In this document: one piece after another, positions 3,001-60,536 of the stretch
Layout: each line of letters begins with the position of its first letter
Numbering within the stretch: the first letter of the stretch is position 1
Origin: Naegleria gruberi
Lineage: Eukaryota
Strand: one strand, 5' to 3'
NCBI GenBank assembly: GCA_000004985.1
Contig: GG738875.1
DNA: 64,000 nt
The notes under the pieces: generated by a model
Seen by the model: only the letters and a program-made list of their open reading frames with translations
The model's database searches: none
Told to the model about the DNA's origin: nothing
Position numbers and translations under genes: made by a program

Positions 3001-4822
3001 TTCATCTTCCAAATCAACCTTTTCAGACAAAATCAATGCAACCATTTGTGTGTCAACAGATAAACTCAACTTGGGATAGTTTTCTCTAATTGAGAACAAC
3101 TTATCCATGTTGGATTCTGTACCAATTGCTTTCTTGAACTTGTCTTTAAATTCATATGAGTTTGAATATTCTGGATTCAGTTCTAAAATGAAATCAAGAT
3201 ACGTCATTCTAACTGGTAACGAATTCAAGAGGAAACGTGCCACTGCACCAACGTAAGGACTATTCAAAATGGCTTGCTTCTTTTTCATAAGGTTTTCCAT
3301 TATCTCACTCAAAGCTCCTTCGTTTGTTATTAAGTAATTAGTATGATTGTTCTTTACAAACTCATAACCTGTAATTTCGGTGTAATCTGAAGACAAAAGT
3401 CTTAAGGCAAAATCAGGAGTGAGACTGATGGCAATTCTGGTGAGAATAACACCTAAACATTTGGATATTGTTTTGTATTGCTTCATTTCTGAATTAAAGG
3501 GAACAGCTAAAAGAGAGTTGAAAATCAATTTCATATCATTAAATTGCAAATTGAATAGAGCATCTGACAATCCAAGTAGAGTACATATGATGAACCGAGT
3601 GTTAACATCTTCTGGGGTTAGGTTCTTCATAAAGGTCACAGCATAATAGAGATCAAGTTTTTTGTTTGATTGGACGAATGATGTTAATAAACTTTCTAAC
3701 TTTTCATAAATGTTTCTACCTGTTTACAGATATAACACGGCAATATTCTACAAGTCCAACAGTATGGTTTTGGTCGAACGCAAAACTATATCTACTTTCA
3801 CCAAGCATGACCATACAAGGTCTAATGTCATTGCCAGTGAAAAATCTATTTACTACATTCTTGGAAACGTGCATTTGTAAAACGACAGAATGGACATATG
3901 GATCAAAGTTACCTCTCATTACATAAAATTGTTGCCCAATCGGTTCCATCTCTCCCAATTTTCTTTTTCTATCATCAAAAACCTCTACCTTGCTGTATTG
4001 ATTGTTCTCTTGCCACAAATAGATGGTTCGTTTCAAGAATGCCTCATTGCTGACAATAGAACTGGAAGAAGTTGCTACCTGGTTGTCTTTTGTAATTGGA
4101 ATCTGAATCAGTCTTTTGGAGCGAGTACCCTTTCTGAAAAGTTTCGATCTTCTTCTCTTGTTGCTGATTTTCCTTACTCTCTGATACCACTGAAACAGTC
4201 TGTTGTTCGATTGTTTCTGGAGGATCTGAAATAGGAGGATATTGAACCTTCTTTGGTTCACTGATCGTACTGTTTTCGACTGCTGGTAACTCATTACCAA
4301 TAGTCTGATCAGTATCAATGTCCATATTATCATTCGATTGGTTACCACTTGTTTGATCGACTGGAGGTATGTGTGTTTGATCACCAGATGAAGTGCTAGT
4401 TCTAGGTGTTTGGGATTCGGTTGATGGTTTTGGAGGGCCTTCAGAATTCCCAACCCTATTCTCCTCTTGCACAGTTGTGGAACTGTTGGGAGGATTAGCT
4501 GTTAACATTTTTTTTGAGATGATGAGACGAAACGTGATGAAGTGTCAAAGTTTTATTTACCCAAAGGTTTGGAAACTGTTTGCCTCTCTGATCTTTGATT
4601 GGTACATGAAGAAGTTGCGTTGTGGACGCAGGTTGCCAATCCTCTTGTGTTCGAATTACAACAAGTGCATGGTCCTAAACAGACGAAACAAAACTTAAGT
4701 GAACAATTACTGCATAACATGTGACGACATCCTCTACCACTATGAGTATTTGGAGTAAAGAAGTCTGGACACAAACGCATTGAAGGCACTCCTGTAGCAA
4801 GAAATGGAGCTGATCCGTTCAT
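1..4822 (-). CDS. Large multi-exon gene, partial. Its N-terminus is near 4822 and its C-terminus lies beyond the window start. Product unassigned.
   Basis: Minus-strand ORFs 4553-4822, 4044-4508, 3716-4453, 2860-3639 and 1853-2839 are consecutive, and an open minus-strand frame runs off coordinate 1. A 63-nt GTAAAT...AACAG intron joins the first two in frame. The gaps 3640-3715 and about 2840-2859 look like introns. The first exon is Cys/His-rich and RING-like (CPDFF..H..C.H.LCSNCSLKFCFVCLGPC). It is followed by a Ser/Thr/Pro/Gln-rich linker. A Walker-A-like SSDVSGVGKTEN sits near coordinate 150. Exon phases were not fully resolved. Confidence 0.55.
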
Positions 4823-5145: not shown

Positions 5146-6048
5146 ATGGATAAATGTCCAGAAGATGGATTTCTCCTTCCGGAACAAACCAAGGATTTTA
5201 TCTCAAGATCTTTGAGAGGGCAACAAGTAGAGGTGAATGATCAAGAAATTAATGTGATTGAAACTCCACAAGTTGATGAACCAATCACTGTTCAAATTTT
5301 GACACTTGGTGGCTCAGTTTGTCAAGTTAAAACTAACAAGAAGCACTCAATCATCACATTGAAGGAAGAAATTGAGAAGTACATGGATATTCCAGTTGGT
5401 AAACAGTCGCTCTTCTTTAGGAATACAGAATTGGAGAATTACAATAATGGTATGTCAAGAAGAGTGGGAGATTTTGGAATTCAAGATAATGACAAGATCT
5501 ATCTCTCCATTTTAATGAAGGAAATTGATGTTGGAGACAATATCAATGCAGTGAAAGTTAGATTACAATGGAATTGGGTTAATTCTCGTGATTTCTTGGA
5601 TGGAATCGTCTACGTTCTCGATGGAAATAACAACATTACAGCAAGACTCGATTATGATAACAATGTTTCTCCTCTTTGTGGAGAATCAATCTTCCACAAA
5701 GGAGACGATATTGACAATGACAGAAAATTAGGATGTCAAATCATTGGCATGAACCTTGAAAACATTCCAATGTCTGTTCAAACTATTGTCTTTACTTTGA
5801 GCTCATACAGAGCATCTTCTCTCAGCTCCTTCAAGAATCCTCGTGTTCACATCGAAGAGGAAACAAGAGGTCAACCATTGGCTGGTTGTGATACTGATGC
5901 GATTAAATCTCAGGCAATTATTGTTTGTGCTTTTAGAAGATCACAACAAGGATGGAGAATCATTCAAATCAATAGAGAATCTTCAGGCAATGCACAAAAT
6001 GATTCTGCTCTCATAACATCCATTATTGATGTTGTCAGAAATTTGTAG
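5146..6048 (+). CDS. Fusion protein: ubiquitin-like domain followed by a TerD-family domain, 300 aa.
   Basis: Single ORF with an A-rich ATG context. Residues about 45-120 resemble ubiquitin (ITVQILTLGGSVCQVKTNKKHSIITLKEEIEKYMDIPVGKQSLFF). The C-terminal half matches the TerD/CABP1 pattern (GIVYVLDGNNNI...SIFHKGDDIDND...SVQTIVFTLSSY...NPRVHIEEE...AIIVCAFRR..GWRI). Confidence 0.6.
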   Translation: MDKCPEDGFLLPEQTKDFISRSLRGQQVEVNDQEINVIETPQVDEPITVQILTLGGSVCQVKTNKKHSIITLKEEIEKYMDIPVGKQSLFFRNTELENYNNGMSRRVGDFGIQDNDKIYLSILMKEIDVGDNINAVKVRLQWNWVNSRDFLDGIVYVLDGNNNITARLDYDNNVSPLCGESIFHKGDDIDNDRKLGCQIIGMNLENIPMSVQTIVFTLSSYRASSLSSFKNPRVHIEEETRGQPLAGCDTDAIKSQAIIVCAFRRSQQGWRIIQINRESSGNAQNDSALITSIIDVVRNL

Positions 6049-6059
6049 AATAAACTTTA

Positions 6060-6320
6060 TTAGAAGAAACTAAAAGATGAACCATCTTTGACACCAGAAA
6101 TAACAATATGATCACCATCAAATATTCTCAACTTTTTCAAGCTATCATTAAAACGATCATCACTATTATTAATAGAATCTTGACTTTCCTGTACGTAGAG
6201 ACTCATCTCTGAGCTATTGAGTTTAAATTCGATTCTTGCTGTGGCAGCAACTTCAGAGAGAGTTGTAGTTTCGGCTACTGTGATTTCCTTCTTGGTATTG
6301 TATTCAATCCAAATCTTCAT
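6060..6320 (-). CDS. Small 86-aa protein with a ubiquitin-like beta-grasp pattern and no C-terminal Gly-Gly.
   Basis: ORF MKIWIEYNTKKEITVAETTTLSEV...LKKLRIFDGDHIVISG has the spacing of a ubiquitin fold. It lies between two plus-strand genes. It is small, so this is tentative. Confidence 0.3.
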   Translation of the reverse strand: MKIWIEYNTKKEITVAETTTLSEVAATARIEFKLNSSEMSLYVQESQDSINNSDDRFNDSLKKLRIFDGDHIVISGVKDGSSFSFF

Positions 6321-6443
6321 ATTTTTTATTTATAATTTGCTTGGCAAGCTACGGGTGAATCGTGATTCTATTTGGACCTTTAGGATAATTCACGTTTCGT
6401 ATTTGCGTTTACAATGGGAATCGTGAAACAAAAACATAAAAAA

Positions 6444-9400
6444 ATGTCTGATACGCTCCTTCTCAGTCGTCAATTTAGTGTGTTTGGTGCCAATGAGACT
6501 CATCATATTGAAAACTGCAAGCTTTTGATCATTGGTTGTAATGGATTAGGCAATGAAGTTGGTAAGTTTTGTTTCGTCATTCATTCTCACAACAGTTTTA
6601 TAGCCAAGAACTTGATCATGGCAGGTGTGAAGAATGTTACTCTATTCGATCCGAAGGGTGTAGAATGGAGAGATTTATCAGGTCTTGTAAGTGAGAACAA
6701 TTCCACTTTTTCGAATACTTTTGTTAACATGATTATTCGAAACGTACTACAGACATTTGTTGGTTCGATTACAATGAAAACCAGAGCCAAGATCGTAATG
6801 GATTATTTGAAAGATCTTGCTCCCAAAACAAACATCAAGGAATCAACTGCAAAGACTTTTTCTGCATTATGTCAAGAAAGTTATCTCAGAGAATTCACTT
6901 TTGTTGTTTGTTGTGGTTATCCTCTTTCTTTGAATTCTAAACTTAACGAAACTTGCAGAAAGGTCGGTATACCTTTCCTTTGCTGTGATTCAAAGGGAGT
7001 TTTGAGTTATGTTTTTGAAGATTTGGGTGAAAATTATACCTACATTGTTGATGATGGTAAAACAAATTATGACACCTCAATTCCTATTGTTTCCATTCAA
7101 AAAGTTGAGAATTCTGATAACAAATATCAAATTATGTGTACTTCTACCTTGAGTGATGGGGTTCTTGTTTCATTCCATCAAATTGTTAACAAATCAATGG
7201 GTGAGGTCAGTGTTGAGGCAAAGAATGACAAGTCAATTGAAACTTCTGAGCATCTTAAAGAAGAATCTATTGATAAGGCTGCAACAACGTCTTCTGCCCC
7301 TGAAGTGAGTAATGAAGGGGAAGTTGAAACTGAAAAGCAAGAAAACATTCCACTTGAACAAACAAAACAAAACGAATCCAATATGAATCCTCAAAATTCC
7401 CAAGTCGAAGAAGAGGTGAACATGATGGAAATTCAAGAAAAATCACACCACCTCCTCGTGAAGAACTATTGGTCCAAAAATCATTCAATCTTCCTACTGG
7501 AAAGTTTAAAATTTCCAACTCTTCCAAGAACTGCTTTACAATTGAATGTGAAGATGAAATTAATCCTGAATGTTATGAAGGAGGATGTTTCTTGAAATTG
7601 GTACGAGAACAAAAAAGTGTTTCCTTTGTAAGTAGTTTTGAGTTTTTTCATGTTCAATTTGACAATGTTAATTAGAAACCATTGGAAGAATTGATTAATC
7701 ATTCCAAGGACAGTTTCTTTTACAATAGAAGAAAGCCAATTGACAATTTACAACTAATGTGCTTGAAAGTATATGATATCTTTGTTCAAGAAAATGGACG
7801 TTCTCCACTTCCATGGAACACTAAAGATTGTACTCAATGCAAGGATTTATCAATTCAGCTTATCAATTCCTATATTAATAATGATATCGTTGAAGACCTC
7901 AAAGGTTTAGAAAGCAAAGCAGAGCTATTCTTTAATACAAGCCAGCAAATATTGCACCATTGAATGCCATGGTTGGTGGTCTAGTTGCCCAAGAAACCTT
8001 GAAATCCATCTCCAGAAAGTACACTCCTCTCAAAGATGATCGAGCCCTTAATCAATTCCTTTTCATTGACAACTTTAATTTGGGTGATACTTTGGAAGAA
8101 TCAATAATGAAGGAAAATGTTCAAAATCTTAGAGGAACAATCTATGAAGGTGTTTCCCCACTTCTTACTGAGAGGGCAATTTCACATTTGAACGGAATGA
8201 ATGTTCTTGTGGCTGGTGCAGGTGCTGTTGGTTGTGAGGTTTTGAAAAATCTCTCTTCCATGATGGTGAGCACAAACAAGAACTCTTCGATTCATGTAGT
8301 TGACTATGATCGTGTTGCTCCTTCAAATCTCCACAGACAAATTTTATTTAGAGATTCAGATGCCAAATTAATGGAATTTAAGGCTATTGCTGCGAGTAGA
8401 AAGCTCAAGCAAATGAATCCAGATTTGAATTTGATTGCCAAAACTGAGAAATTATGCTATGAGAGTGAAGAGACTGAATTTCCTGAACAATTCTGGCAGA
8501 ATGTCAATGTCATCTTTTCATGTGTTGATAGCAAGGATGCAAGAGGTTATTTAAGCGATAAAGCTCAAATCCTTCACATTCCCATGATTGAAGGTGGTAC
8601 TGAGGGATCTAAAGGTTCCTCTCTCATCATTCACGAACAAGTTGCAGGTTATGGATCCTACATGAATCTGAATGCTTCAAGAGAGGAGGAAGTTGTAATC
8701 AATAATGCATGTATTCCATCCTTTGCAATTTATAAACCAGAGCAAGCCATAAGAAAGGCAGTAGAACTTTTCACATGGTTCTTTAAGGAAAATGTTGAAG
8801 TTGTGAATTTGCTTGGCAAACATGATCTTTCTGATGAGAAGGTTAAAGAAAATTATGAAATGTATAGAGATGGTCTTGAGAAACCAGAAAAAATGTCCAG
8901 ACAACTCTTTAATATATTGTTTGAGGAACAAATTAATGAAGCTGCTGCCAAATATAATGAAATCAATGAGAAGGGTAAGTTGTAAAATGTTGGAATTGTT
9001 CATAACCAAACTATTCGAAAGATGATGTCAAATTATTGTTGAGAAAACCACCCATTCAAGAAAAATTCAATGCTCATGACGAATCCCATTTAAGATTCCT
9101 CAAAGCATCCAATGCTATCATTAAGGAATTTAAAATCAAAAAGAAAAAGCTCACACCTATCCATTTTGAGAAAGATGAGGATTCTCATTTGGAATGGATT
9201 GTTTCCTGCTCTATTCTATTGTCCAAATGTTATGGAATATTCCATAATGGAGAGAGAGAATTTGTTAGAAGAGTTGCTGGACAAATTATCCCTGCCATCA
9301 TTACAACCACTTCAATGGTCTCAGGTTTCATGTGTCTCAATTTGTTCAAGTATGTCCAGACTGGATATAAGAATCTCAGTAATTTGGATTTTAATACTGC

Positions 9401-9632
9401 AAGTAATGGATATAGTTTCCATCATTGTGTTCAAAAACTGAAGAGTCCAGTCCCTGGAAAGTTAATTTCCAACTTTGAAACAGTTTCAGATTTTGTAATT
9501 TATCCTTCCACAACAATTACTGAATGGGTTGACTTTGTAAAGAGAAAGTATGAAATTGGAGTTGAAAAGATAACAATCTATCCAAAGTTTGATGTTTATG
9601 ACTTTGGATCTCTTCCATGGGGTGAAACGTAA
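6444..9632 (+). CDS. Canonical-type ubiquitin or ubiquitin-like activating enzyme E1 (tandem ThiF adenylation domains, FCCH, catalytic-Cys region, C-terminal UFD). Multi-exon, with apparent frame breaks.
   Basis: LSRQFSVFGANE...LLIIGCNGLGNEV|AKNLIMAGVKNVTLFD matches the first, inactive adenylation domain; the GT-AG intron 6562-6603 is 42 nt. PTGKFKISNSSKNCFTIECEDEINPECYEGGCFLKLV matches the FCCH segment. APLNAMVGGLVAQETLK...VLVAGAGAVGCEVLKN...VVDYDRVAPSNLHRQILF is the active ThiF domain. NACIPSFAIYKPEQAI aligns to the PICTLKNFP catalytic-Cys region. GQIIPAIITTTSMVSGFMCLNLFKY plus a roughly 95-aa UFD-like tail ends at a TAA at 9630-9632. A 48-nt intron at 7631-7678 removes an in-frame stop. 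The segments lie in three frames that no intron can reconcile at about 7420-7470 and 7932-7960. Confidence 0.75.
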
Positions 9633-9707
9633 GTTATTTGCAGGCAATCTGATTTTATATTCGAAACCATTTCTAGATTTTATGAAACTTTCAGCAAGAA
9701 TAGAACA

Positions 9708-10740
9708 ATGCAAAAGAAAGAATGGATTACCCTCATCAGTGAGACATACATTGATGGTTTTCCATACAGTTTCAAAACTCAAGTCAGAGTTTCTGTTCCA
9801 CTCAAACTGCAAAATGTTGAAGGATCGTGTTATTTGAATTCTGCATTGCAAGTTTTGCATTCATGTCATGAATTTGTTGAGCAATTGAGAAATAGCTCAC
9901 CAACAACACCTGTTGCAAAGGTTTTGAAATCTGTTTTTGAGGATAACTTTTCAAGAGTAAGTTTTTTCTTAATTCATGTTAATTTGAACCCAAAAAGTCC
10001 AAAATTAATGAACTCAGACGATTGACAAACAGATCAGACAAATATTCAGGAGATACACCAGTAAGTTTTTTTTGCCTAATCATCATCAAAATATTCTAAA
10101 TAATAATAATATTGACAACTAGAAATATGTGAGATCAATTTTTACTGAAATTTTAGGAGAGGAAGAAATTGATAGTGAACTCATCGATTGTAAACTGGTT
10201 GACTATTTCAGTTGGAAATCTCCTCAAATTTGTGATGTTTGTGAAGAGTGTCAACAGTCTATTAGAGGACCTATCAGACCCATTTCCTCTCAAGTTCTTC
10301 TACTTCAAGGAAATCCAAAAGTTTCCACTGAACAATTACTGAACAATAGTTTCTGTTTCGATTCCAATAACAAGTGTCAATGTGGAGGTAAAATTTTCAG
10401 ACACAAAATATTCCAATCCTGCCCAGAATATCTTCTCTGTGAAATTGAAAATCCACAACAAAAGTGGATTCCAAACAATTCTATCGAAACCAAAGTTTAT
10501 ATTGAAACAGTTGACTGTACTTATGAACTAGTTGGTGGAGCCATTTATAGTGGAAATAGAAGTGGTGGACATTGGAGAGCCTACTCAAAACAAGCTTATG
10601 GTTGGTTTAGTTGTGATGATTCAATGGTTTCCTATATTGGAACAACTATTCCAAGTTCATACTTGTTAGGAAGTGCCTTTGTGGCATATAAGAAAGTTGG
10701 CAATGATCCAACAAATGAAGATGAAATGGTTGATGAATAA
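9708..10740 (+). CDS. Ubiquitin carboxyl-terminal hydrolase (USP/UBP, peptidase C19), at least two exons.
   Basis: Cys box VEGSCYLNSALQVLHSCHEFVEQL sits in the exon ending at 9956, with a GTAAGT donor. His box GGAIYSGNRSGGHWRAYSKQAYGWFSCDDSMVS sits in the exon beginning about 10123. The intervening 9957-10122 is one 166-nt intron or contains a micro-exon whose phase I could not resolve. The ATG at 9708 lacks the usual A-rich context. Confidence 0.7.
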
Positions 10741-10899
10741 ACTAATGTACAATTTATTGACAAACTAATCGAATTGCCTTAGTTTCGTATGATGTTGTCG
10801 GAGAACACTCTCGAACTATATTCATTAATATTCGTACAAAAACTGGAAATTGCTTTTGAAACCAGTTTATTCAACAACAATCAAACTAAACATAAAAAA

Positions 10900-12141
10900 A
10901 TGAGTTTATGTATTGGTGGTTGTGGTTTCTATGGAACACCAGAACGTAGAGGATATTGTTCTTCATGTGAAAAAAAGCATCCGAATAATAATTCAAGTAA
11001 TTTAACAAATGACAGCTTCCAAAAATGGAAAGATGAGCATGATAAACAAAAAGAAGAGGAAGAAATTCTAAAGAAACGTTCTGCTGAATATTTAATTGAA
11101 AATCAACAAAAGAAAGTTCGTAATGAGCCTTGTGTGAAATTTAACATGTCGGAAGTCAGTATGTTGACAGATGGTGGATTATTTGTTGAGATTGTCAAGT
11201 TTTTGGAAGTTTCTGATATGTATCACATTATGCTGGCTTCAAAATCAATGAGTTCATTGGTAAATAATGAGTATATTTGGAAAATTTTATTCGAAAACAA
11301 ATATGGAAATGAGGAGAAACCAATAGTTGGAACTTGTTATGAAAATCTCAGAATGAGAGGAAGGTTTACAAGATCTGAAGTGTCATGGAACTATTTCACT
11401 GAAAATCCATGGGTATTAGAAAAGTTGCTCACCATTAAAATTACCAAAATTGGAAAAATTGGAAATCTCAATTCACCATTGGATCAATTAATTCCTCCCT
11501 CAATTAATAGACAAAACATCACTCAAATAATCAAACATTTATGGCAACCACTCAAAAATGACCTTCCACATCTTATTGAACTACTCACACAAAGAATCAA
11601 AAATCTCCTAGTTGTCAGAGATGAATTATCAAGATGGCATTTGATTTATGTTTTTAAATTACAATCAGAGGATGAAGAGGAAGATGAAGAGGATGAAGAG
11701 GAAAATGTTAGGTTTCTCTCAGGAGGTCTGCCTTACCATCCAGGAAACTCTGGAAATGAATTACAATTTGATTGGTGGGGGAAATGTCCAACCTCTCTGA
11801 AAAGTTTCATGTCAATTCATAATGGATTTGGTGATAATCCAAGTTTGGATTATAGTAAGGGAACTTTTGATAGTTCAGTATTTGTGAATTATCCAAAGTT
11901 TGATGGATTGGAAGTTTTGACGTTTCATCATGGTGCTGATTTGGATCAATGTAAGTATGATAATATTGTAAATTATTGTAATTTTCAATGAAATTGTAAA
12001 GGTTTTGTAAGAGATTCAGGAAGTTTAGAACTAGAACCAAAAACTGGTCAGTTCTGGAGAAGATATAAAGGTCGTCCATCACCTGAGATTTCATTTTACA
12101 AATTTATGGATTCGTATTATTCACAAGCTTTTCAAGAATAA
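10900..12141 (+). CDS. A20-type zinc finger plus F-box protein, two exons: join(10900..11950,12002..12141).
   Basis: N-terminal MSLCIGGCGFYGTPERRGYCSSCEKK is the A20 zinc-finger signature. An F-box-like stretch follows (LTDGGLFVEIVKFLEVSDMYHIMLASKSMSSLVNNEYIWKILFE), then an acidic EDEEEDEEDEEE tract. The 51-nt GTAAGT...AAAG intron restores the frame to a terminal exon ending ...YSQAFQE*. The true ATG is probably at 10900, in an aaaaaaATG context, not at the track start 10789. Confidence 0.6.
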
Positions 12142-34820: not shown

Positions 34821-37372
34821 ATGTCTAGCAAGTATTTCCCTCCACATACCTATTGGGATGGTCGATGTTTTCCCAGTCACATAACTTCCTTCGGTACTAA
34901 TAATTCTTCTTCTGCCAATTATTCATCATCATTTGATGAGAATAATGGTGATGAATTGGATGTCAAGACGTATATTGAAAGTCAACAGGATGATCAACCG
35001 ATTGGTTATACTCCGATGGGTTCTGCTGCATGGGATGAAGGTTGGCAAGATTTTGATAATGATTCCTCACCATCTTCTCCACAGCCAATAACAAAATCTT
35101 CATCAACAGTTAAACAATTCTTTGATGATAACTTTGTTTCTTTAGAAGGAGATGATAATACTGATCAATCAGCAGCAGCAATTGATCAAAGTGAGAAGAA
35201 TTCTTCCATCAAACCGAATGAAAAATCAAATTCTTTTGATATGGTTGTCTTGTTGCAAAAGTTTTCCTATTATTACTTATCAATTGTGAATAATGATAAT
35301 TGTGGAGATAGATTTGAAAATGTGGAGGAGAGTGATGTCTTTATGATTCGTCTGCCTTCAGAGACAATTCGTGCCTCGAAGAAATTACTGATATCTGAGA
35401 GTAATTTCTTTAAGTTAATGATTGAGAGTCAAATGAAAGAAGCGAATGAAAATCAAGTGGATTTTAGTGCTCTTTCGAATGAAGAGGAATTGGACACACT
35501 CAAGATTTTGAATTTTCTGAGATATGGTAATATAGGCGTGCCAATTAAGGGAACAGCTTTTCCTTTAAATTTGGAAGATTTTGGAAGTAATCTTATTGGG
35601 ATTGTGGATTTATTGAGATTATTGGATGTGGCTGATAAGTTTGGAGTTGCTTCTTTTATTGTGTCGGTGACGAGTATTCTGAATCAATATAATGTTATGA
35701 TATTACTTGAGAAAGCTCTTCAAATTACACCAGAATTGGGGAGCATTCTAATTGAAGCGTGCATTTCTGTAATTTCACATAATTTGCCCTGTGTTTTAGG
35801 TGGTTTAATCTATGAAGGGGTCATTGATCAATTTCTGGAACGAATTCCAACCAGTATAGACGAATGGAATAAGAAATGCAAGGAAACTTACAAGATATTC
35901 AAACAAATCCAAATGTTCAACATCAAAACCGATACCAAACTCTTCATGCTACAATCTTTAAAGACCAATCCAACAGTGAACTATCTGGTTGATGTTTTGC
36001 CGTGTGACATATTTTTGAGAGTTATGAAATGTACAAATCAGCTGTGTGTTGATGATTTTCTTGGATTAATCACATTGTGGATCTTATCGAGCTCTTTTGA
36101 AACATGCTTTCAAGATTATTCCACATTGGAAAATCTCGAAACTGACAATTTAATTTATAGATTGAGAGAAGGAATCATTCTTGCATTGGAAAATGTCAAC
36201 ATGATGAAAATGACTCACAATAGAAGCTTATTTATGCTTCTTCATCCAATTATGAGATATTACAGCAGATCCTATCCTTTGGAATTCCAAGATTTATTTT
36301 CGACATTTCTTGTGGAAACAGCAGATCCAAAAAACTCAATAGGTGATTACACCTCTTTACACATGCTGGCAACTCAGACCATTGCACCCATGCTAAAGAA
36401 ATGCTTTGGAGATCATCCAATTTTGCCTAAAAAAGATATTGCTGAGCTATATTATCAATTCTGTTTTGATTCCACAGATAATTCTTATACGACAGATAAT
36501 GCGCAAAGGATTATTCCTCAACTTTTTGCAAAAATAATCAAGGAACAGGAAAATGATGAGATCATTAATGAATTTTCAAAATTACTGACCTATGTCATGT
36601 TTCATCAGTTTGGCAAGTTTGTTGAACAAGTTCCTAAACCTGCATTACCAATAGAAAAATATAAGATAATTGGACAAAAGAACTCTTTGAAATCTTTCGA
36701 GGCTAACTTATTTGGATTGGACGCCTCAGGAAAGACACTTCTATTAGAGAGAATGAAATCCCCAAATTCTAATGAGGTAGTTCAAACTTTTCAAACGATT
36801 GGATTTAATAATGAAACTATTTCATATGGAGGTGCTCCTATTAATGTTGTAAGTAGATTTTGAGTTTAGGATAATAATGTGTGGATTCTATTAAGGTTGA
36901 TGTTGGTGGGTCGGTAAGACTTAGAGGATTGTGGAAGAATTTCGTCTCACCAAATGCTCCTGATTTACTTGTCATGGTTGTTGACCTTTCCAATAGACAA
37001 AGATTCCAAGAAGCAAGAGAAAGTTTCGACAAACTAATGAACAATGTGGACACTCAACAAGATGATGGAAATGCCAAACCACTCTCTATTTTATTACTCG
37101 CCAATAAGACAGATTGCATACCAGATAAGGAACTTAGATCCGTCTTGGAATCAGAATTATTCAAGACATTCGAAACTTCTTCTTATTTATCAACATACAA
37201 CTTGTTGTGGAATAATTACCGATTCAAGTACATGTCCTGCTCTGCAAAGACTGGAGAGGGAATTGAGAATATTTGGAATTGGTTTTTTGAAAATGAATTC
37301 CTTAGTCAGTATTCAGTCGAGGAGAATCGTTACTTTATTCCTCTACCTTCATCAGCAGAATGGCTCGCCTAA
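34821..37372 (+). CDS. Protein with a large N-terminal region containing a BTB-like segment and a C-terminal Arf/Arl-family GTPase domain: join(34821..36848,36896..37372).
   Basis: The C-terminus carries the Arf-family motifs GLDASGKTLLLERM (P-loop), TIGFNNETISY, DVGGSVRLRGLWKNF (switch II), LLLANKTDC (NKxD) and CSAKTGEGI. A 47-nt GTAAGT...TTAAG intron (36849-36895) joins ...GGAPINV|VDVGGS... in frame; track ORF 36881 starts at a GTG inside it. N-terminal DVFMIRLPSETIRASKKLLISESNFFKLMIESQ is BTB-like. Confidence 0.7.
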
Positions 37373-41418: not shown

Positions 41419-41491
41419 TGCTGACGGACGGGATCGAACCGGCGACCAATGGCTTATTAGACCAACGCTCTACCGACTGAGCTACGCCAGC
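41419..41491 (-). tRNA. tRNA-Ile, anticodon AAT.
   Basis: The reverse complement reads GCTGGCG-TA-GCTC-AGTCGGTA-GAGC-G-TTGGT-CTAATAA-GCCAT-TGGTC-GCCGG-TTCGATC-CCGTC-CGTCAGC-A. This is a cloverleaf with a 7-bp acceptor stem, GTTCGATC T-loop, U33 and A37. One mismatch each in the anticodon stem and the T stem. Confidence 0.8.
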
Positions 41492-42101: not shown

Positions 42102-45100
42102 ATGATATCATCCTCTAAAACTCCTCCAAAGTTTGTGTCATATAAATTGATCTTGTTGGGCAGCAGTTCTACGGGTGAGTGTTTTTAATATGAGCTTTTA
42201 AAATTCACAACACATGATAATCAGGAAAGACGAATCTGGTCTTGCGATTTGTTAGAGGATACTTTAGTGAGCATGAGGAGAGCACTATTGGAGCTGCTTT
42301 CTTGACTCAAACTGTACCATTGGAGGATAGAGTTGTGAAATTTGAAATTTGGGATACGTAGGTTTTAGTATCTTTGATTAATCATTGAATGATTATTGTA
42401 AATGCATTTGAAACAATTATAGTAGTGGACAAGAACGATACAAATCATTGCCAGCAATGTACTTTAGAGGAGCTTATGCAGCTCTTGTGGTGTATGATAT
42501 TACCGATGCAGAGTCGTTCATACAAGCCCAAAAGTGGGTGACACTAGTTCAACAAGGTAATTCGACATTAGTAATTGCTCTTGCTGGTAATAATGCGCAC
42601 TTGGAGGATAAACGTCAAGTCGAGACATTTGAAGCCAAAGCATATGCTGAAAAGCATTCACTAATTTTCATGGAAACCTCAGCCAATACTGCTCAAAATG
42701 TTAATGAAATTTTTACTGCCCTAGCTCGCAAAATGCCAGTCGATACATCAATAGAAAGGGTGATGGCTTTTGAAGCTGTGAGGGAAAATTGGACAGTATT
42801 CAAATCACTTCAAGAAAACTTTAAAAGTGACAGAGACATTGCACTACTTGCAATTAGGAAAAATGGGTTGGCCTTAGAATTTGTATCAGTGGAACTGAAG
42901 AATGACAAATTATTGGTTCTTGATGCTGTGGAAAATCAAGGAATTGCATTGCAATATGCTTCAATGAATTTGAGGGCAGATAAGGAAGTGGTTCTTAGAG
43001 CTGTCAAAAATAATGGACTTGCTCTACAATATACCACAACAGAGAATTGCTCAGATGAAAAAATTATTCTGGATGCTATTGAAAATGATGTAACCTCCTT
43101 TCAGTTTGCTTCACAGGAAAAAAGATTTGATAAGGAATTTGTGAGAAAGGCAATATCAAAGGATTGTAAATGTTTTAATTTTACAGAATTGCAACACGAT
43201 ACTGAAATAATTCTCTTTGCTTTAGAGAATGGATATTCTCTCAAATATGCAAGCATGGAGCAACGAAACCATAGACCCTTGATATTGGAAGCAGTTAAAA
43301 AAGATGGAAATGCTCTTCGCTATGCCCCAAAATATTTACAAGACATTGAGCTAATTTTTATAGCCATTAATAATGGATTTACAAATCCAAAAAACATACT
43401 CACAAACGAACATTTAATATTGCAAGGTTTTACAAGAAATGTTATCAGTTTTCCAGATATTCCGAAAGAATTCAGAAACAACAAACAAATTTTGATGGAA
43501 ATAATAGCAAGATTTACAAAATTATATAATAACTCAAAGATGGAATATTACCAAGACATATCAAAATTTCAATCACTCTACAAGAGTGATCTAAAAATTT
43601 CATTAATGAATAATATTTTACAATCTTCAATAGATTCACATGCTATTACATGTTATGAATTGTTTCATGACTTGATTTTAATCGACACATTAAAAAGAGA
43701 AGAGCTCAGAAATTGGGGAAGGAAATGTAGAATGACATTGATATGGGCACAATATATTCCTGGCTTGTTACAATACTTGTCAAAAAACCATGTACCAAAT
43801 ATTGATTTAGAATTGGCAGTATATTTTTCCAATTACAGACCTAGAGGTACCTTTTCATTTAAAAGAACATATCCAAAGGAAATGTGGATAGAACTTAATC
43901 TTCTCAAGGAGATTTCTAATCATATCACCAAATTTAATTTAAGATCAGAATTAATTTTGGATTATCCATTTTACAATTCAAATTACTACCTGTTACTAGA
44001 TTTTATTACTAATATCATTAATGGATCTTTACAGGAAGTTAATTTCCAAAATATCAATTCATACACGTTTAATTTTTCAGATATATTTAACAAGGAATGT
44101 ACGGATACATTAATTTCAACTTGGATATCCCTAGATAATTTTCCAAAATTGTCCTCAATTTCAGAATTATTGAATCAAAATAAGGAAATATATTTGGAAG
44201 AGAGAGGTTATGCTTCTATAATACATTCAAAGTTTCCACTCTATATACCCACATCTATACTTGGAAAGGGCGCTGAAGGTATCGTTTTTGAATGTTATAA
44301 TGTTAAAGAAAGAAAAACGGTGGCATTCAAATTGAACTTTCAATATAATTTACAAGATCATGTAATAGTTGAATTATTAATGAAAAATATTGATGGAATA
44401 ATTCACTGTCATGAATGTAACGTATTTGAATATTCTGACAAGAAAATCAAATATATCATTATGGAAAAAGGGGAAAAAATTGGGCCTGCACTAGAGGACA
44501 TTTACAATAGAAACAATAATATGCTTGACAAGGAATCACTCACAACAATTCTACAAATGTTTGTACAAATATTACTGGCAGTGAATAATTTACATAACAA
44601 TAATTTTGCCCATCGAGATTTGAAACTCGCTAATATGGTTCTAGTAGGTGATACTATTAAGATTATCGATTTGGATTCCTCGAGAGTTATCATGACTAAC
44701 AAATCTTGCACATTGAATATTGGCACACTGAAATATATTGCCCCAGAATTATATAATAATGAAAGTGAAAGAATTTTACAGAACTTTGAAATATCCAAAC
44801 AATGTGACATGTTTTCTTTGGGATGTATATTATTGGAAATACTCATTCATCAACCCTTAATGTTAGACTCTGAATATTGTAATCAGGAGCAAATGGAAGA
44901 TGATCTAAATATCCAGCATTTTACAAATTCTGGATTGTACTTTCATCAAGCTGTTGGCACACAATACCTTCAACACAAGCTCCATCATGCAATCAAAATG
45001 CAAATAGATAGAATGGTTGATTCTTCATTAGAAATTAATACAATCCTCTCTAGGATAATCATTACAATGATTCAACAAAATCCAAACCTCAGAGGCAATT

Positions 45101-45327
45101 GTGCTATGTATTTACAAATATTTAAAGAACTATTATTGTCCTTAAACAATAGTCAACCACTAATACTACCAGAAACTTTAACCAAAAATCTACTTGATTT
45201 TAATAAGAATATTATTACATTGTTAAAAGAAGAAAACTTGCAGCTTAAAACAAAGAATGAACAATTGGAAATGGAATTGATTAAATTAAGAGAAGAATTA
45301 ACTTTTCTTTCACACAAGAATAAATAG
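42102..45327 (+). CDS. Single-chain Rab5-like GTPase, DUF4116-like repeats and a protein kinase, about 1036 aa: join(42102..42174,42225..42357,42423..45327).
   Basis: Exon 1 [25 protein letters not shown] carries the P-loop GSSSTGKT across a 50-nt GTGAGT...AG intron. Exon 2 is [44 protein letters not shown]. Exon 3 begins [28 protein letters not shown]...[14 protein letters not shown]...[15 protein letters not shown]. The frame then runs straight into about six DUF4116-like repeats ([70 protein letters not shown]...) and a kinase domain ([32 protein letters not shown] in place of [12 protein letters not shown]). It ends in a coiled-coil tail. Confidence 0.75.
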
Positions 45328-47366: not shown

Positions 47367-47671
47367 TTGTATTTGTTATTTGTTTTGTTATTGGTTGTTT
47401 TTTTTTGTGTTGGTTTTTAGCAAACGCGTTTGTGTTGCGGGTTTTAAAGCTAGCAGGTTGTGCAAGCAAAAAGTTTTGCTGTGGTGAGTCACCAGGCGCA
47501 ATTATTTTTGTGACCTGCGTATGTGTAAAATTATTAAATTGTGTCAATGCTTCTTTTTTGAATTGGATAGGCTGCTTTTGAATCAGAGTTTATTTATCTA
47601 TCGATTATTAATAGAAAATATAATATTATAGAGCCTGTTGAAACTTTAGGAATATTGGTAAAAAGATAAAA

Positions 47672-47789
47672 GACTACAGCACCACAGGTTCCCAAGTTGT
47701 CTCCAACCTCAGTACTGATGTGGCTCGACGATGCTTAACTTCTCAAATCGGACGGGATGAGGTGCATTCATCGTGATATGGCCGTAGTC
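47672..47789 (-). rRNA. 5S ribosomal RNA gene.
   Basis: The reverse complement GACTACGGCCATATCACGATGAATGCACCTCATCCCGTCCGATTTGAGAAGTTAAGCATCGTCGAGCCACATCAGTACTGAGGTTGGAGACAACTTGGGAACCTGTGGTGCTGTAGTC is about 118 nt. It aligns with the universal 5S features GCCATACCAC..., CCCGTCCGATCTG.GAAGTTAAGC and ...GGTGCTGTAG, followed by a T-run. Confidence 0.85.
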
Positions 47790-55283: not shown

Positions 55284-55693
55284 TTATGTGAATGAGAAAC
55301 CTTGGCATGGGAAGGATAGTGAAATTTATGTTCGATCGACATGATATTATTAATCTCTTCAAACTTCAAAATGGTACACGATTCCGATAACCTCTCATAT
55401 GAATTTTAAATTTGTCGAACAGGGCATCGTGCTGCTGTAGGGGAAGGATTGTGATCAATGAGAGAAATGATCACACAACAACACTCTGAATCATCGTTTT
55501 GCATTTTTTTTATTTAAATTTGCTTATTGTAAAGGCACTAATACAAACTTCTTTTCAGAATGTTGAATGTTACTAGCTAGTCAAAGTTTCAAGCATTACA
55601 TATGCAACACTCATAAACTTAGCAACAAAATTTTGAGATGATGCCAAACTTGAGAATGTTGGTAAAAAGATAAAAGACTACAGCACCACAGGT

Positions 55694-55834
55694 TCCCAAG
55701 TTGTCTCCAACCTCAGTACTGATGTGGCTCGACGATAAAAGACTACAGCACCACAGGTTGCTTAACTTCTCAAATCGGACGGGATGAGGTGCATTCATCG
55801 TGATATGGCCGTAGCCATTTATAACCTTAAATAG
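55694..55834 (-). rRNA. Second 5S rRNA copy with an internal 23-nt duplication; variant or pseudogene.
   Basis: It is identical to the 47672-47789 copy except for one substitution near the 5' end (GGCTACGG versus GACTACGG). An inserted aaaagactacagcaccacaggtt also repeats the gene's own 3'-terminal 23 nt between ...gctcgacgat and gcttaac.... Both copies share about 25 nt of 5' and 3' flank. Confidence 0.6.
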
Positions 55835-56189: not shown

Positions 56190-58289
56190 CTAGACCTTCA
56201 TTTTGGGTAAAATGCTTAGCTCCTTTTCCAATTGTTTCTCATATGATGCTTGGAAACGAGTGTAATTATCCAACATGTTGTGTTCACAAGCTGTTTGAAT
56301 TCTATCAAATATTTCAGGAGTGATGGCAAAGAGGAAACTCATATCTTGTGGATTTGTGGAAGTTTGCTTTGGAGAAATATTCAATTTTGGAGAAGGTGAA
56401 ACATTTCCATTTTTAGAAGCAAAATTAATGGTACTGTCTTTTAGGGATTTGAAGATTTTCTCAATTTCTGGAATTCCAAAATCCTTTCTTGAAATGTTCA
56501 ATTCAAGAGGAGCTCCAATTCGAATATAAGTATTACAAATATTGTAAAATAATTCTCTTCTTTGTTTTTCTGATTTGATTGTTTTGAATTTCTCAATGGC
56601 ATTCCACATCATGACATCTTCACATGCAAAACATTTTTCTGAGAATTTCAGAAAGAGATTATTCCACTTTTCATTCAGTAAAATCTTTCGAATGCTACTT
56701 TCAGAAGGTTTCGAATGTTGAAGTTTAGAATCAACTGATGGAGTGCTTTCTGTATGTTGTTTCTTGTCAGATTTGAATCTTTGAAGGAAGAATACAGGAT
56801 ACGTGAATGAAATTAATGTATCCCACATATTTCCAATTAAAATTGTAATCGTCCATGGGAAATAATAATCAATACTTTACAAAATATTACAATTATTATT
56901 CTAATCTCAGATATATATTACTTACTAGGTTGTAAAAATAGTGAATAAAGAAGGCACAGCATACAATACAATAAAAAAAACCCATCCAAATATCACAACA
57001 ATAACCTCAATCTTAATATGCCAAACATCTCTCTTGGTAAAGAATGAAAACAATAACAGTAAAACTCCAATAAATCCATAAAAGGCAAAATAACTAATGA
57101 AAATATTTTGATTGTAAGATCCAGTTCCACATCCAGATGGTGAAAATAAATAACTATCAATTGTAAAGCTATTTCTCGAATTGCTTGATGCACCTCCAGT
57201 ATTTTGAAAATTGAAATAGTCAATTGTGCCAATAATTAGGAAAATTAAAATGTGTAGAGCTAGTAATAATCCATAATAAATGAAAATAAATTTGGAGCTC
57301 ACTAGAAATCTCATAATGGAAATTAATTTGCCTCTTTCGAATGATTCTAATAGAGTTTCTTTTCTGAAAATCATTTCGTCTTCAAGTGGTTTGTCAGTTG
57401 TGATATCTTTTGGTTCGATTGTGAATTGTGACATAATGCTTGAAGTTCTGCCAACTGTCAATGCTGACAATGAGGTTCTATTGGTAGCTTTCAATAATCC
57501 AGATGAGCTAGAAACACTGCTTGTTTCTGAATGAACTTTCAATTCTTTCATTTCAGTGTCAGTTGTCAATGGGTTGTTGGCAGATGGAGGAGTATTATTC
57601 AATGTTTCCAATATATCCAAACTCACATTTGCATCCATAAGTGGTTTCATATTTTCTGATGATGTTGTTGCATGCAAGTCATATTGTCTCTTTCCAATCC
57701 TCACTTTCAATTCGTTCAGTTTGGTCAATACCAACAATCTAATACATCTCAATATGACAGTATTCGAAAGTGCAGGCACAGCCAAATAATAGATTAGTGA
57801 AAATATGAAACATGGATAAATCTTTCGTCCAATTAACACTCTAGTCATTAATACGAAAGTATAGGTCCATCCAATAATTGCTCCCATGACCATCAATGCT
57901 GGATTCCTGGCAACCTGCAAATAATTCACAACTTGTTTGTGTTCCTTTTGGAGAATATGCAACATTCTCAATTTATAAACTAAACCTCCAACCGAAACTA
58001 ATAACAAACATGTGTGAATAAAGAGGATAATTGCTGAAATAACAACAGCTGATGTGGTATCATCACACAATCCCTTCTCACTCTTGTTTCCTTGTGAAAG
58101 GAGGAGTGGATGACAAACTGTGCTGTCATTATACATGTTGGTAGAGTTGACTATTAGTGAGGTGTTGATATTGAGCGTTGTGTGGATGTTGAAAATGGGC
58201 ACATGCATGTTGGTGACATGGAACGTCAACGTGGATAAAAATCCATCAAACATGCCATTTGTCTCTTCGGAATGAGCATTCAAATCCAT
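56190..58289 (-). CDS. Seven-transmembrane receptor-like protein with a C-terminal RGS domain (7TM-RGS), paralog 1: complement(join(56190..56874,56926..58289)).
   Basis: Track ORF 56925-58304 has six hydrophobic helices and ends ...SLFTIFTT then tag. A GTAAGT donor sits two nt into that stop codon. A 51-nt intron (56875-56925) then joins in frame to YIDYYFPWTITILIGNMWDTLISFTYPVFFLQRFKS (helix 7). This runs into track ORF 56190-56828, whose RGS domain is ILLNEKWNNLFLKFSEKCFACEDVMMWNAIEKFK...ELFYNICNTYIRIGAPLELNI...ACEHNMLDNYTRFQAS. The real ATG is 58289 (cttgaaaATG). Confidence 0.7.
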
Positions 58290-58535
58290 TTTCAAGTTGG
58301 CCAATTGAAAAAGGTGATATGAGTTGATTAGTTTTTTTTTCTTCTTTAAAATTGTTATGGTTCACCATTGAGCGACTTTGTCCTCTCAATGAAAGTGAAC
58401 CTTGATTGTGAAATCTTGATAAAATTTATTTGGGAATCTGATTTCTAATTTGTGCTATTCCATTAGTGGCCCTGAAAAACTATTCGAAAGAAGACTATTA
58501 GTTGTAGATTGGTAGAGTTGAATGTTGGTTGTTTA

Positions 58536-60536
58536 TTACACTTTAAGCTTGGCTACGATATCCAATTCCTTTTCCAATTGTTTCTCATACGATGCTTGGA
58601 AACGAGTATAATTATCCAACATGTTGTGTTCACAAGCAGTTTGAATCTTGTTGAATATTTCAGATGTTATTGAGAATAACAAATTATTTGGGTCAACCTT
58701 TGCATTGTTATTCGAAACCTTTGGAGAAACATTTCCATTCTTTGAGGCAAAATTAATGTTACTCTCCTTTAATGCATGATAAATGTCCATAATTTCTGGA
58801 ATTCCAAAATCCTTTCTTGAAATGTTTAATTCAAGAGGAGCTCCAATTCGAATATATGTATTACAAATATTGTAAAATAATTCTCTTCTTTGTTTTTCTG
58901 ATTTGATTGCTTTGAATTTCTCAATGGCATTCCACATCATGACATCTTCACATGAGAAGGATTTCTCTGCGAATTTCAGAAAGAGATTATTCCACTTTTC
59001 ATTCAGTAAAATCTTTCGAATACTACTCTCACCAGAAATATTTACACTGGAAACTGAAGGATTGGTCGAGAGAGCTGGTTCAATGGAATTACCCTCTGAC
59101 TTGTTTGATTTGAATCTTTGAAGCACAAAAACTGGATAACTGAATGAAATGAGTGTATCCCACATGCATCCAATTAAAATTGTAATTGTCCATGGGAAAT
59201 AATAATCAACACTTTAAAATGTTAAGTTATCAAAACTTAATGATACCTACTATGTGGTAATAATTGTAAATAAGGAAGGAATACTAAAAGCAAGAACAAT
59301 AGCAGCCCAAAACAAGTTAATAATCACAACTTCAATCTTAATATTCCACACGTCTCTCTTTGCAAAAAAGGCAATTATGGATAGTAAAATTCCAATTAAT
59401 CCATAAAAGCAAAAGTAGCTAATGAATATATATTGATTGTAAGCTCCAACTCCACATCCAGATGGTGAAAATAAATAACTATCAATTGTAAAACTATTTC
59501 TCTTTTGATTTGTTTTTACAGAAGTATCATTTTGATAATTGAAATAGTCAATAATGGCAATGATAAAGTAAATGCTCAAGTGAAATCCAATGACCACAAC
59601 ATAGCTCAATAAAACAAATTTGGAGCTCACGAGAAATCTCATGATGGAAAGTAATTTTCCTCTTTCGAATGATTCTAATAGAGTTTCCTTTCTGAAAATC
59701 ATTTCCTCTTCCACATTATTTTCATCATCATCTGCATTACTATCCTTAGGTTCAATTACAAATTGTGAGAGAATACCTGAAGTTCTGCCAACTGTTAATG
59801 CTGACAAATTTGTACTGTTCTGATTTCCAGCTAAACTACTATTCGAAATGGATAAACTATCAAGAGACGTAACTGTTTCCAATTCCTTTTCCACTTGATT
59901 TTGTGAAATATTCGTGTTTTCCTCAATCATGGATTTCATATTGTCCGATGATGTTGTTGCATGCAAATAATATTGTCTCCTTCCAATCCTCACTTTCAAT
60001 TCGTTCAGTTTCGTCAATATCAACAATCGAATACATCTCATAATAATAGTATTCGAAAGTGCAGGAATAGCAATAAAATAGATTAGTGAAAATATGAAAC
60101 ATGGATAAACCTTTCGTCCAATTAACACTCTCCCCATCAACATGAACGTATAAGACCATCCAATCAGTGCTCCAATTACCATTAATAATGGATTCCTTGC
60201 AACCTGCAAATAATTCACAACTTGTTTTTGTTTCTTCTTTAAAACATGCAACTTTCTCAATTTATAAACTAAACCTCCAACCGAAACCAAAACGAGCATT
60301 GTGTGAAGAAACAAAACAATGGCAGAAATTACTGTGGAAGAGGTCATGTCATCACACAATCCCTTCTCACTCCTATTTCCAAGAGCTAATAGGAGAGGAT
60401 GACACACAGCACTATCATTGTATTTGTTATAGGTATTGTTGTTGTTAATGGTGATGGAATCGTTGGAAAGAGTTTCGAATATGTTGTAGGAAAGAGATGT
60501 AATGACATCAGCATGTGGTTGGTGGTGAAAGGACAT
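58536..60536 (-). CDS. 7TM-RGS protein, paralog 2: complement(join(58536..59211,59251..60536)).
   Basis: Same architecture as paralog 1. A GTAGGT donor inside the tag stop of the 7TM ORF and a 39-nt intron (59212-59250) give ...SLFTIITT-Y-VDYYFPWTITILIGCMWDTLISFSYPVFVLQRFKS and the RGS domain. The bridging peptide differs from paralog 1 by 2 of 15 residues, although the ORF track treats it as intergenic. Confidence 0.7.

What the first reader, a model, noticed from the sequence alone, without database searches (positions are those of the whole stretch)
9589..9760. Possible in-frame splice fusing the E1 to the downstream USP deubiquitinase
The E1 ORF ends ...LPWGET with the T codon acg followed by taa, and that g-t forms a consensus GTAAGT donor. 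Two candidate acceptors, ...tttctag at about 9676 and ...ctttcag at about 9694, both lie before the USP ATG. Both put the USP Cys box in the same reading frame as the E1: ...WGE-T-FYETFSKNRTMQKKEW... or ...WGE-T-KNRTMQKKEW.... The USP ATG also lacks the A-rich start context seen at other genes, and the genes are only 76 bp apart. An activating enzyme covalently linked to a deubiquitinase would be a remarkable architecture.
Basis: inference. Interest (0 to 1): 0.6.

Follow-up and report, generated by a model that had tools for sequence, protein, structure and literature searches.

The report
Probable intron fusing E1 to deubiquitinase
In this Naegleria gruberi region, the stop codon ending a ubiquitin-activating enzyme (E1) gene sits inside a perfect splice-donor signal, and splicing there would join the E1 in frame to the next gene, a ubiquitin-removing protease; this unusual "activate and remove" enzyme is likely but unproven without RNA data.

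Summary
The sequence facts hold. The E1 frame ends ACG-TAA, and G+TAAGT forms GTAAGT at 9629-9634. The acceptors TTTCTAG (ends 9676) and TTTCAG (ends 9694) give introns of 48 and 66 nt. The USP reading frame is the E1 frame, and TAA is the only stop between them.

The window is Naegleria gruberi. Its confirmed introns are 39-66 nt, nearly all with GTAAGT donors and TAG, CAG or AAG acceptors. By the rule that identifies the six other GTAAGT introns of these two genes, 9629-9676 (or 9629-9694) is an intron. Thirteen of 16 sense-strand, in-gene GTAAGT copies are real donors.

An E1 ending at ...WGET would lack about the last 40% of its C-terminal region, that is half of the E2-binding ubiquitin-fold domain (UFD): 113 residues after the PAIxTTT motif, against 141-211 in 105 homologues.

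Against: there is no RNA evidence. No E1-USP fusion appeared among 156 E1 relatives. The peptide after the junction shows no significant similarity to the missing UFD half. Spacers of about 50 nt are normal here. Two frame switches inside the E1 are unresolved.

I put an in-frame E1-USP fusion at about 0.65. It would be a new eukaryotic architecture, paralleled by bacterial E1-JAB fusions.

The parts
6414..9628 (+). UBA1/UBA6-type E1 coding region. Exons are 6414-6561, 6604-6686, 6753-..., ...-7627, 7676-..., ...-8974 and 9022-9628. GTAAGT introns are 6562-6603, 6687-6752, 7628-7675 and 8975-9021. Two frame switches (within 7355-7593 and 7945-7972) are unresolved.
   Evidence: Pfam ThiF, UBA_E1_SCCH and E1_4HB. 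phmmer to Uba1 structures, E 7e-45. The full-length model scores about 515 bits against an HMM of 78 E1s. Introns.
9629..9634 (+). Consensus GTAAGT splice donor. Its TAA (9630-9632) is the in-frame stop of the E1 ORF.
   Evidence: Identical to the donors of the other six GTAAGT introns in the E1 and USP genes.
9629..9676 (+). Candidate intron A, 48 nt, acceptor TTTCTAG. It gives ...WGET-FYETFSKNRT-MQKK...
   Evidence: The length lies within the 39-66 nt range of confirmed introns, and it is the first AG downstream of the plausible branch region.
9629..9694 (+). Candidate intron B, 66 nt, acceptor TTTCAG. It gives ...WGET-KNRT-MQKK... A third in-frame acceptor lies at 9703 (75 nt). An out-of-frame AAG acceptor lies at 9698 (70 nt).
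   Evidence: 66 nt equals the longest confirmed intron here (6687-6752).
9677..9707 (+). Linker coding segment if intron A is used (FYETFSKNRT). It is 5' UTR if the USP is a separate gene. It contains an out-of-frame ATG at 9681.
9708..10740 (+). USP/UCH deubiquitinase coding region. Exons are 9708-9956, 9998-10060 and 10123-10740. Introns are 9957-9997 and 10061-10122. Cys box GSCYLNSALQ, His box GGHWRAYSK.
   Evidence: Pfam UCH, 51.3 bits against a cut-off of 23.9, covering residues 34-284. Exon structure.

Best explanation
Positions 9629-9676 (48 nt), or alternatively 9629-9694 (66 nt), are a spliceosomal intron of Naegleria gruberi. Its removal deletes the TAA and joins the last E1 exon in frame to the USP exons. 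The product is one polypeptide of about 1,230-1,300 residues: inactive and active adenylation domains, catalytic-Cys domain, ubiquitin-fold domain region, then a USP-type cysteine protease.

Inferred mechanism: the protease trims a ubiquitin or ubiquitin-like precursor, or recycles conjugates, to expose the C-terminal glycine. The attached E1 then adenylates that glycine. This would be a 'process-and-activate' module, probably serving the cluster of ubiquitin-system genes around it. Retention of the intron would give an E1 truncated in its UFD, so splicing could also act as a switch.

Shown: the splice signals, frame continuity, intact catalytic motifs of both enzymes, and truncation of the E1 if it is not spliced. 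Inferred: that splicing happens, which acceptor is used, and the function.
For: (1) The donor is an exact GTAAGT, as are the donors of the six other GTAAGT introns in these two genes and seven elsewhere in the window.
(2) Of 16 sense-strand GTAAGT copies inside genes, 13 are real donors. The three exceptions lie inside uninterrupted coding sequence: 12594, 34366 and 15753(-).
(3) Lengths of 48 and 66 nt fall inside the confirmed range of 39-66 nt. TAG, CAG and AAG acceptors are all used here.
(4) The frame is open for 207 codons before the donor and 115 codons after acceptor A. This is the same criterion that validates the other introns.
(5) The TAA is followed by G, whereas 16 of 20 true terminal stops in the window are followed by A.
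(6) The unspliced E1 ends 113 residues after the PAIITTTS motif, against 141-211 in 105 full E1 homologues. It aligns only to positions 1 to about 100 of a 170-position HMM of the region from the PAIxTTT motif to the C-terminus. S. pombe Uba1 has 72 residues beyond the last aligned position, against 24 here. The closest E1s all keep the ...VEVPxVRY end of the UFD.
(7) Splice A adds 44 residues before the UCH domain begins, restoring a typical length.
(8) The catalytic residues of both enzymes are intact.
(9) An out-of-frame ATG at 9681 would interfere with an independent USP mRNA that had a longer 5' UTR.
Against: - There are no transcript data.
- No relative above 40% identity exists in the collections. 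None of the 156 E1 homologues retrieved contains a USP domain.
- The peptide after the junction has no significant similarity to the second half of the UFD: -0.6 bits, and no better than shuffled sequence. However, about 5% of genuine UFD halves score as low in a leave-one-out test.
- The USP has its own first in-frame ATG with A at -3.
- Tandem genes about 50 nt apart are normal here.
- The E1 contains two frame switches that need non-consensus introns or sequence corrections, so the locus may be imperfect.
Confidence: 0.65

Rival explanations
1. Two separate genes. The TAA is the true E1 stop, the GTAAGT is a coincidence, and the USP is transcribed and translated on its own from ATG 9708.
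For: The USP has a good start context, AGAACAATG. Spacers of about 50 nt between tandem genes occur elsewhere in the window. No E1-USP fusion appears among 156 E1 relatives. The post-junction peptide is not detectably UFD-like. Three sense-strand GTAAGT copies in coding sequence are evidently not spliced. GTAAGT overall is about as frequent as dinucleotide-preserving shuffles predict.
Against: It requires a joint coincidence that I estimate at below 1e-3: the donor landing exactly on the stop, the same frame, no other stop, and suitable acceptors. It leaves the E1 with half a ubiquitin-fold domain, shorter than every complete homologue. The stop context TAA-G is atypical for terminal stops here.
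Confidence: 0.2
2. The donor is used but with the out-of-frame AAG acceptor at 9698 (70 nt). This gives the E1 a 46-residue alternative tail (TIEQCKRKNGLPSS...KDRVI) that overlaps the 5' coding region of a separately expressed USP.
For: AAG is the commonest acceptor among confirmed introns here, 7 of 14. Frame 1 is open for 46 codons. The tail length would roughly restore the UFD length.
Against: 70 nt exceeds every confirmed intron in the window. Two good in-frame acceptors lie upstream of it. Same-strand overlapping coding is rare. The alternative tail also shows no UFD similarity.
Confidence: 0.05
3. A decaying or mis-assembled locus. The E1 is a recent pseudogene or carries sequence errors, so the TAA and the frame switches are lesions rather than signals.
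For: Two frame switches lie inside the E1 (7355-7593 and 7945-7972). Only non-consensus donors are available to repair them: GTGAAG, GTGAGT, GTTTAG. A frameshift-corrected model scores the same as the intron models.
Against: All exons stay open, and the ATP-binding and catalytic-Cys motifs are conserved. The E1 model scores about 515 bits. The TAA is not an indel, and it coincides with a perfect donor. Other long ORFs in the window (up to 1,308 codons) argue against frequent assembly errors.
Confidence: 0.1

Closest known systems
Canonical eukaryotic ubiquitin E1 (UBA1/UBA6/UBA7; e.g. S. pombe Uba1, PDB 5UM6/4II2)
   Same: Two ThiF-type adenylation domains, the GAGAxGCE ATP motif, a catalytic cysteine aligned within one position of the Uba1 Cys, and SCCH and 4HB elements. 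It is 30-40% identical over the core.
   Different: It is very divergent. It has an acidic insert in the first catalytic-Cys half-domain. It has no Pfam E1_UFD match. If unspliced it lacks the last ~60-70 positions of the family model. If spliced it carries a C-terminal USP domain, which no retrieved E1 has.
USP/UBP deubiquitinases (Pfam UCH, PF00443)
   Same: A minimal USP core of about 250 residues with a Cys box and a His box. The Pfam score is well above the cut-off.
   Different: Its N-terminus would be an E1 rather than the usual UBL, DUSP or zinc-finger modules. No close homologue was found.
Bacterial E1-like proteins fused to JAB deubiquitinating peptidases (Iyer, Burroughs and Aravind 2006, PMC1779556)
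   Same: An activating enzyme and a ubiquitin-removing or -processing peptidase in one polypeptide, sitting in a neighbourhood of Ubl-system genes. [quoted passage not shown]
   Different: The bacterial fusions use a single-domain E1-like enzyme and a JAB metallopeptidase. Here there is a two-domain eukaryotic E1 and a papain-fold USP, so the parallel is convergent rather than homologous.
Ordinary phase-2 GTAAGT introns of this genome
   Same: The donor is GTAAGT, and when two codon bases precede the intron, the intron's TAA always reads as an immediate in-frame stop. Example: 36849-36895, which splits an Arf domain.
   Different: Here the downstream exon begins a different enzyme and has its own ATG.

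Membership tests
Spliceosomal intron of this genome (N. gruberi short-intron class) | GTAAGT (rarely GTAGGT) donor | tested here: met
   GTAAGT at 9629-9634. 13 confirmed introns use GTAAGT and one uses GTAGGT.
Spliceosomal intron of this genome (N. gruberi short-intron class) | Length 39-66 nt, ending in TAG, CAG or AAG | tested here: met
   48 nt ending in TAG, or 66 nt ending in CAG.
Spliceosomal intron of this genome (N. gruberi short-intron class) | Removal joins two long open frames | tested here: met
   207 codons upstream and 115 codons downstream, in frame.
Spliceosomal intron of this genome (N. gruberi short-intron class) | Spliced junction observed in RNA | not testable with these tools
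   No transcript data are available.
Canonical UBA1-type E1 | Two ThiF adenylation domains with an ATP-binding motif | tested here: met
   Pfam ThiF, 136 bits and 87 bits. GAGAVGCE is present.
Canonical UBA1-type E1 | Catalytic cysteine in the SCCH domain | tested here: met
   The Cys in NNACIPSF aligns within one position of the Uba1 catalytic Cys. Pfam UBA_E1_SCCH scores 29.3 bits against a cut-off of 21.
Canonical UBA1-type E1 | Complete C-terminal ubiquitin-fold domain (E2 recruitment) | tested here: not met
   For the unspliced ORF there is no Pfam E1_UFD hit. The tail after the PAIxTTT motif is 113 residues against 141-211, and it aligns to HMM positions 1 to about 100 of 170. For the spliced form the length is restored, but similarity is not significant, so that case is inconclusive.
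USP deubiquitinase (PF00443) | UCH domain above the Pfam cut-off, with Cys and His boxes | tested here: met
   51.3 bits against 23.9. GSCYLNSALQ and GGHWRAYSK...CDDS are present.
Bacterial E1-JAB fusion systems | JAB/MPN metallopeptidase domain fused to an E1-like domain | tested here: not met
   The peptidase is a USP, and there is no JAB match. The resemblance is functional only.

The most novel reading that the evidence does not exclude
N. gruberi makes a single E1-USP polypeptide that processes and then activates a dedicated ubiquitin-like modifier encoded in the same gene island. Candidates are the 86-residue Ubl-like ORF that diverges from the E1 promoter and the Ub-TerD protein. An IBR-type ligase gene and an A20/F-box gene lie beside them. 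This would be a self-contained, lineage-specific conjugation system that converges on the bacterial E1-JAB design. Intron retention could serve as the switch between a truncated E1 and the fusion.
Probability: 0.25. Interest if true: 0.75.

Novelty: new variant of a known kind. Interest (0 to 1): 0.55.

Why it matters
E1 enzymes and deubiquitinases act at opposite ends of the ubiquitin cycle and are normally separate proteins. A natural eukaryotic fusion would show that precursor processing, or recycling, and activation can be physically coupled. It would give a convergent parallel to the bacterial E1-JAB systems. It would also offer a compact model for how a DUB next to the UFD affects E2 loading. 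Practically, it bears on the gene models of a reference protist genome.

Tried and rejected
- Word-indexed homology search with UFD+USP found no hits. The same search with 860 residues of the fusion found six distant E1s and no fusion.
- An exhaustive HMMER search with the E1 core exon gave a best identity of 35-40% and no long C-terminal extensions. A local phmmer of the USP against all 156 E1 hits found nothing.
- Scans of metagenome and viral contigs found nothing.
- Exact look-ups of window ORFs or gene models in assemblies and clusters found nothing except the Ub-TerD gene.
- Structure prediction, representative search and contig look-up all refuse spliced sequences, so the fused UFD could not be modelled.
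- HMM, hhalign, phmmer-versus-shuffle and leave-one-out tests for UFD similarity of the post-junction peptide were all non-significant.
- AlphaFold on the small Ubl-like ORF as a single sequence gave pLDDT 39, which is uninformative.
- Literature searches found no E1-USP fusion.
- My first mononucleotide estimate that GTAAGT is strongly depleted was wrong. Dinucleotide-preserving shuffles expect about 21 copies against 24 observed.
- I rejected an alternative 96-nt intron (9548-9643, GTATGA donor), because it would delete a UFD strand that aligns well to homologues.

Full report
**What is there**

The window has 34% G+C and is densely packed with eukaryotic genes interrupted by very short introns. 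One ORF, 5146-6045, is 100% identical to Naegleria gruberi XP_002675874.1 / NAEGRDRAFT_49954, so the window is N. gruberi.

A large E1 gene runs from 6414 to 9632 on the + strand. It has Pfam ThiF twice, UBA_E1_SCCH and a sub-threshold E1_4HB match. It matches Uba1 crystal structures at E 7e-45, and a spliced model scores about 515 bits against an HMM built from 78 full-length E1s.

A small USP deubiquitinase follows from 9708 to 10740. It scores 51 bits on Pfam UCH against a cut-off of 23.9, and it has Cys and His boxes.

**Checking the observation**

- The E1 frame ends ACG TAA, and G+TAAGT forms GTAAGT at 9629-9634.
- TTTCTAG ends at 9676 (48 nt) and TTTCAG ends at 9694 (66 nt).
- Both candidate introns are multiples of three, so the E1 frame runs into the USP frame. 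TAA is the only stop between the two coding regions.
- A third in-frame acceptor ends at 9703 (75 nt). An out-of-frame AAG acceptor ends at 9698 (70 nt).

Two supporting arguments do not hold:
- The USP start context is AGAACAATG, with A at -3, like the E1's own TTTACAATG.
- A 75-nt spacer is not unusual here. USP to the next ATG is 48 nt, and the A20 gene to the Arp gene is about 52 nt.

**The genome's own intron rules**

I catalogued the introns that are proven by joining long open frames, or by restoring alignment to homologues. There are 14, with lengths of 39-66 nt. Thirteen have GTAAGT donors and one has GTAGGT. Acceptors are AAG (7), TAG (5) and CAG (2), with no exon-side consensus.

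Six of the GTAAGT introns are in the E1 and USP genes themselves. The candidate meets every one of these criteria, with 207 open codons upstream and 115 downstream.

Because GTAAGT contains TAA, any such intron that follows two bases of a codon creates an immediate in-frame stop. An ORF 'ending' in this way is therefore what such an intron looks like.

GTAAGT as a hexamer is not rare: 24 copies against 20.7 +/- 4.2 in dinucleotide-preserving shuffles. However, of the 16 copies on the sense strand inside genes, 13 are real donors. The three exceptions lie inside uninterrupted, homology-supported coding sequence.

True terminal stops in this window are followed by A in 16 of 20 cases and by G in only 2. 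The E1 TAA is followed by G.

I estimate the joint chance of a donor exactly on a terminal TAA, the same frame and no further stop at below 1e-3 per tandem gene pair.

**The truncated E1**

From the conserved PAIxTTT motif to the C-terminus, 105 complete E1 homologues have 141-211 residues, with a median of about 164. The window E1 ending at ...WGET has 113.

It aligns to positions 1 to about 100 of a 170-position HMM of that region and then stops. S. pombe Uba1 continues for 72 residues past the last aligned position, against 24 here. Even the closest, already divergent E1s keep the characteristic acidic-loop-VEVPxVRY ending.

From established knowledge of Uba1 structures, the missing part is the helix and the central strand(s) of the beta-grasp that recruits the E2. 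An unspliced product would therefore have half a domain.

Splice A adds 44 residues before the UCH domain begins, which restores the typical length.

This remains only a length argument. The added peptide (FYETFSKNRTMQKKEWITLISETYIDGFPYSFKTQVRVSVPLKLQN) shows no significant similarity to the second half of the UFD by HMM, hhalign or phmmer against shuffled controls. In a leave-one-out test about 5% of genuine UFD halves score equally low. The result is therefore neutral to mildly negative.

**Comparative evidence**

None could be obtained.
- No protein above 40% identity to the E1 exists in the 1.8-billion-protein representative library.
- The word-indexed searches returned nothing relevant.
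- None of the 156 E1 relatives retrieved contains a USP domain.
- Metagenome and viral scans were empty.
- No protein identical to the E1 or USP exons is in the searchable collections, so the public gene model for this locus could not be inspected.
- The tools refuse spliced sequences, so the fused domain could not be modelled.

**Complications**

The E1 has two frame switches, 0 to 2 within 7355-7593 and 2 to 1 within 7945-7972. They can be repaired only by introns with weak donors or by assuming single-base errors. The intron candidates are 7458-7504 (GTGAAG) or 7305-7504 (GTGAGT) for the first, and 7905-7945 (GTTTAG) for the second. All repairs score alike against the family HMM.

The conserved motifs and long open exons argue against an old pseudogene. 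Even so, this lowers confidence that the locus is fully understood.

**Mechanism and context**

The most likely reading, at about 0.65, is a real intron producing an E1-USP fusion of about 1,230-1,300 residues in which both active sites are intact.

The inferred logic is that the protease exposes or recycles the C-terminal glycine that the E1 then adenylates. Intron retention would yield a UFD-less E1, which gives a possible switch.

The surrounding genes form a ubiquitin-system island:
- an IBR-like Cys-rich gene on the minus strand;
- a ubiquitin-like + TerD fusion protein;
- an 86-residue Ubl-like ORF that diverges from the E1 start;
- an A20-zinc-finger/F-box-like protein downstream.

The closest functional precedent is the bacterial E1-like proteins that are 'typically fused' to JAB peptidases (PMC1779556). 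The domains here are different, so the resemblance is convergent.

**Rivals**
- Two independent genes with a coincidental donor: about 0.2.
- A decaying or mis-assembled locus: about 0.1.
- Donor use with the out-of-frame 9698 acceptor: about 0.05.

**Verdict**

A few junction-spanning RNA reads would settle it.

Noticed in passing
window 5146-6048 (+): A protein with an N-terminal ubiquitin-like domain fused to a TerD domain. It is 100% identical to N. gruberi XP_002675874.1 (NAEGRDRAFT_49954), which identifies the organism. It lies directly upstream of the E1.
   Followed up: partly
window 6060-6320 (-): An 86-residue ORF (MKIWIEYNTKKEITV...ISGVKDGSSFSFF) with sub-threshold Pfam matches to three Ubl families: TUG-UBL1, UBL_USP40 and UN_NPL4. 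Its start is 94 nt from the E1 start, in the divergent orientation. It is a possible dedicated modifier that would need C-terminal trimming. AlphaFold on the single sequence was uninformative (pLDDT 39).
   Followed up: partly
window 4553-4822 (-) and 10789-12139 (+): More ubiquitin-system genes flank the pair. One is a Cys-rich segment with weak IBR matches, inside a large minus-strand gene. The other is an A20-zinc-finger protein with F-box-like and SUKH-like sequence, carrying an intron at 11951-12001. Together with the Ub-TerD gene, the E1 and the USP, they form a ubiquitin-system island.
   Followed up: partly
window 7355-7593 and 7945-7972 (+): Two reading-frame switches inside the E1 with no GTAAGT intron to explain them. 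Weak-donor introns (7458-7504 or 7305-7504, and 7905-7945) and single-base corrections fit the E1 family HMM equally well.
   Followed up: partly
window-wide gene 3' ends: Sixteen of 20 terminal stop codons are followed by A (TAAA or TAGA), often with AATAAA- or TGTAA-like motifs close by. This suggests that the stop codon is part of, or adjacent to, the 3'-end signal in this genome.
   Followed up: no
window 56875-58304 (-) and 59212-60536 (-): Two neighbouring paralogous genes of unknown function share an intron position. The donors differ (GTAAGT and GTAGGT), and the downstream exons are nearly identical.
   Followed up: no
window 47671-47789 (-), 55675-55816 (-), 41419-41491 (-): Two dispersed 5S rRNA genes, the second weaker at 66 bits, and a tRNA-Ile(AAT) lie among the protein-coding genes.
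   Followed up: no
window 9681 (+): An out-of-frame ATG 27 nt upstream of the USP ATG opens a 52-codon frame that overlaps the USP start. It would be a disruptive upstream start codon for an independent USP mRNA unless the 5' UTR is shorter than 27 nt.
   Followed up: no
window 42448-45327 (+): A multidomain signalling protein: a Ras-family GTPase, five DUF4116 repeats and a protein kinase domain.
   Followed up: no
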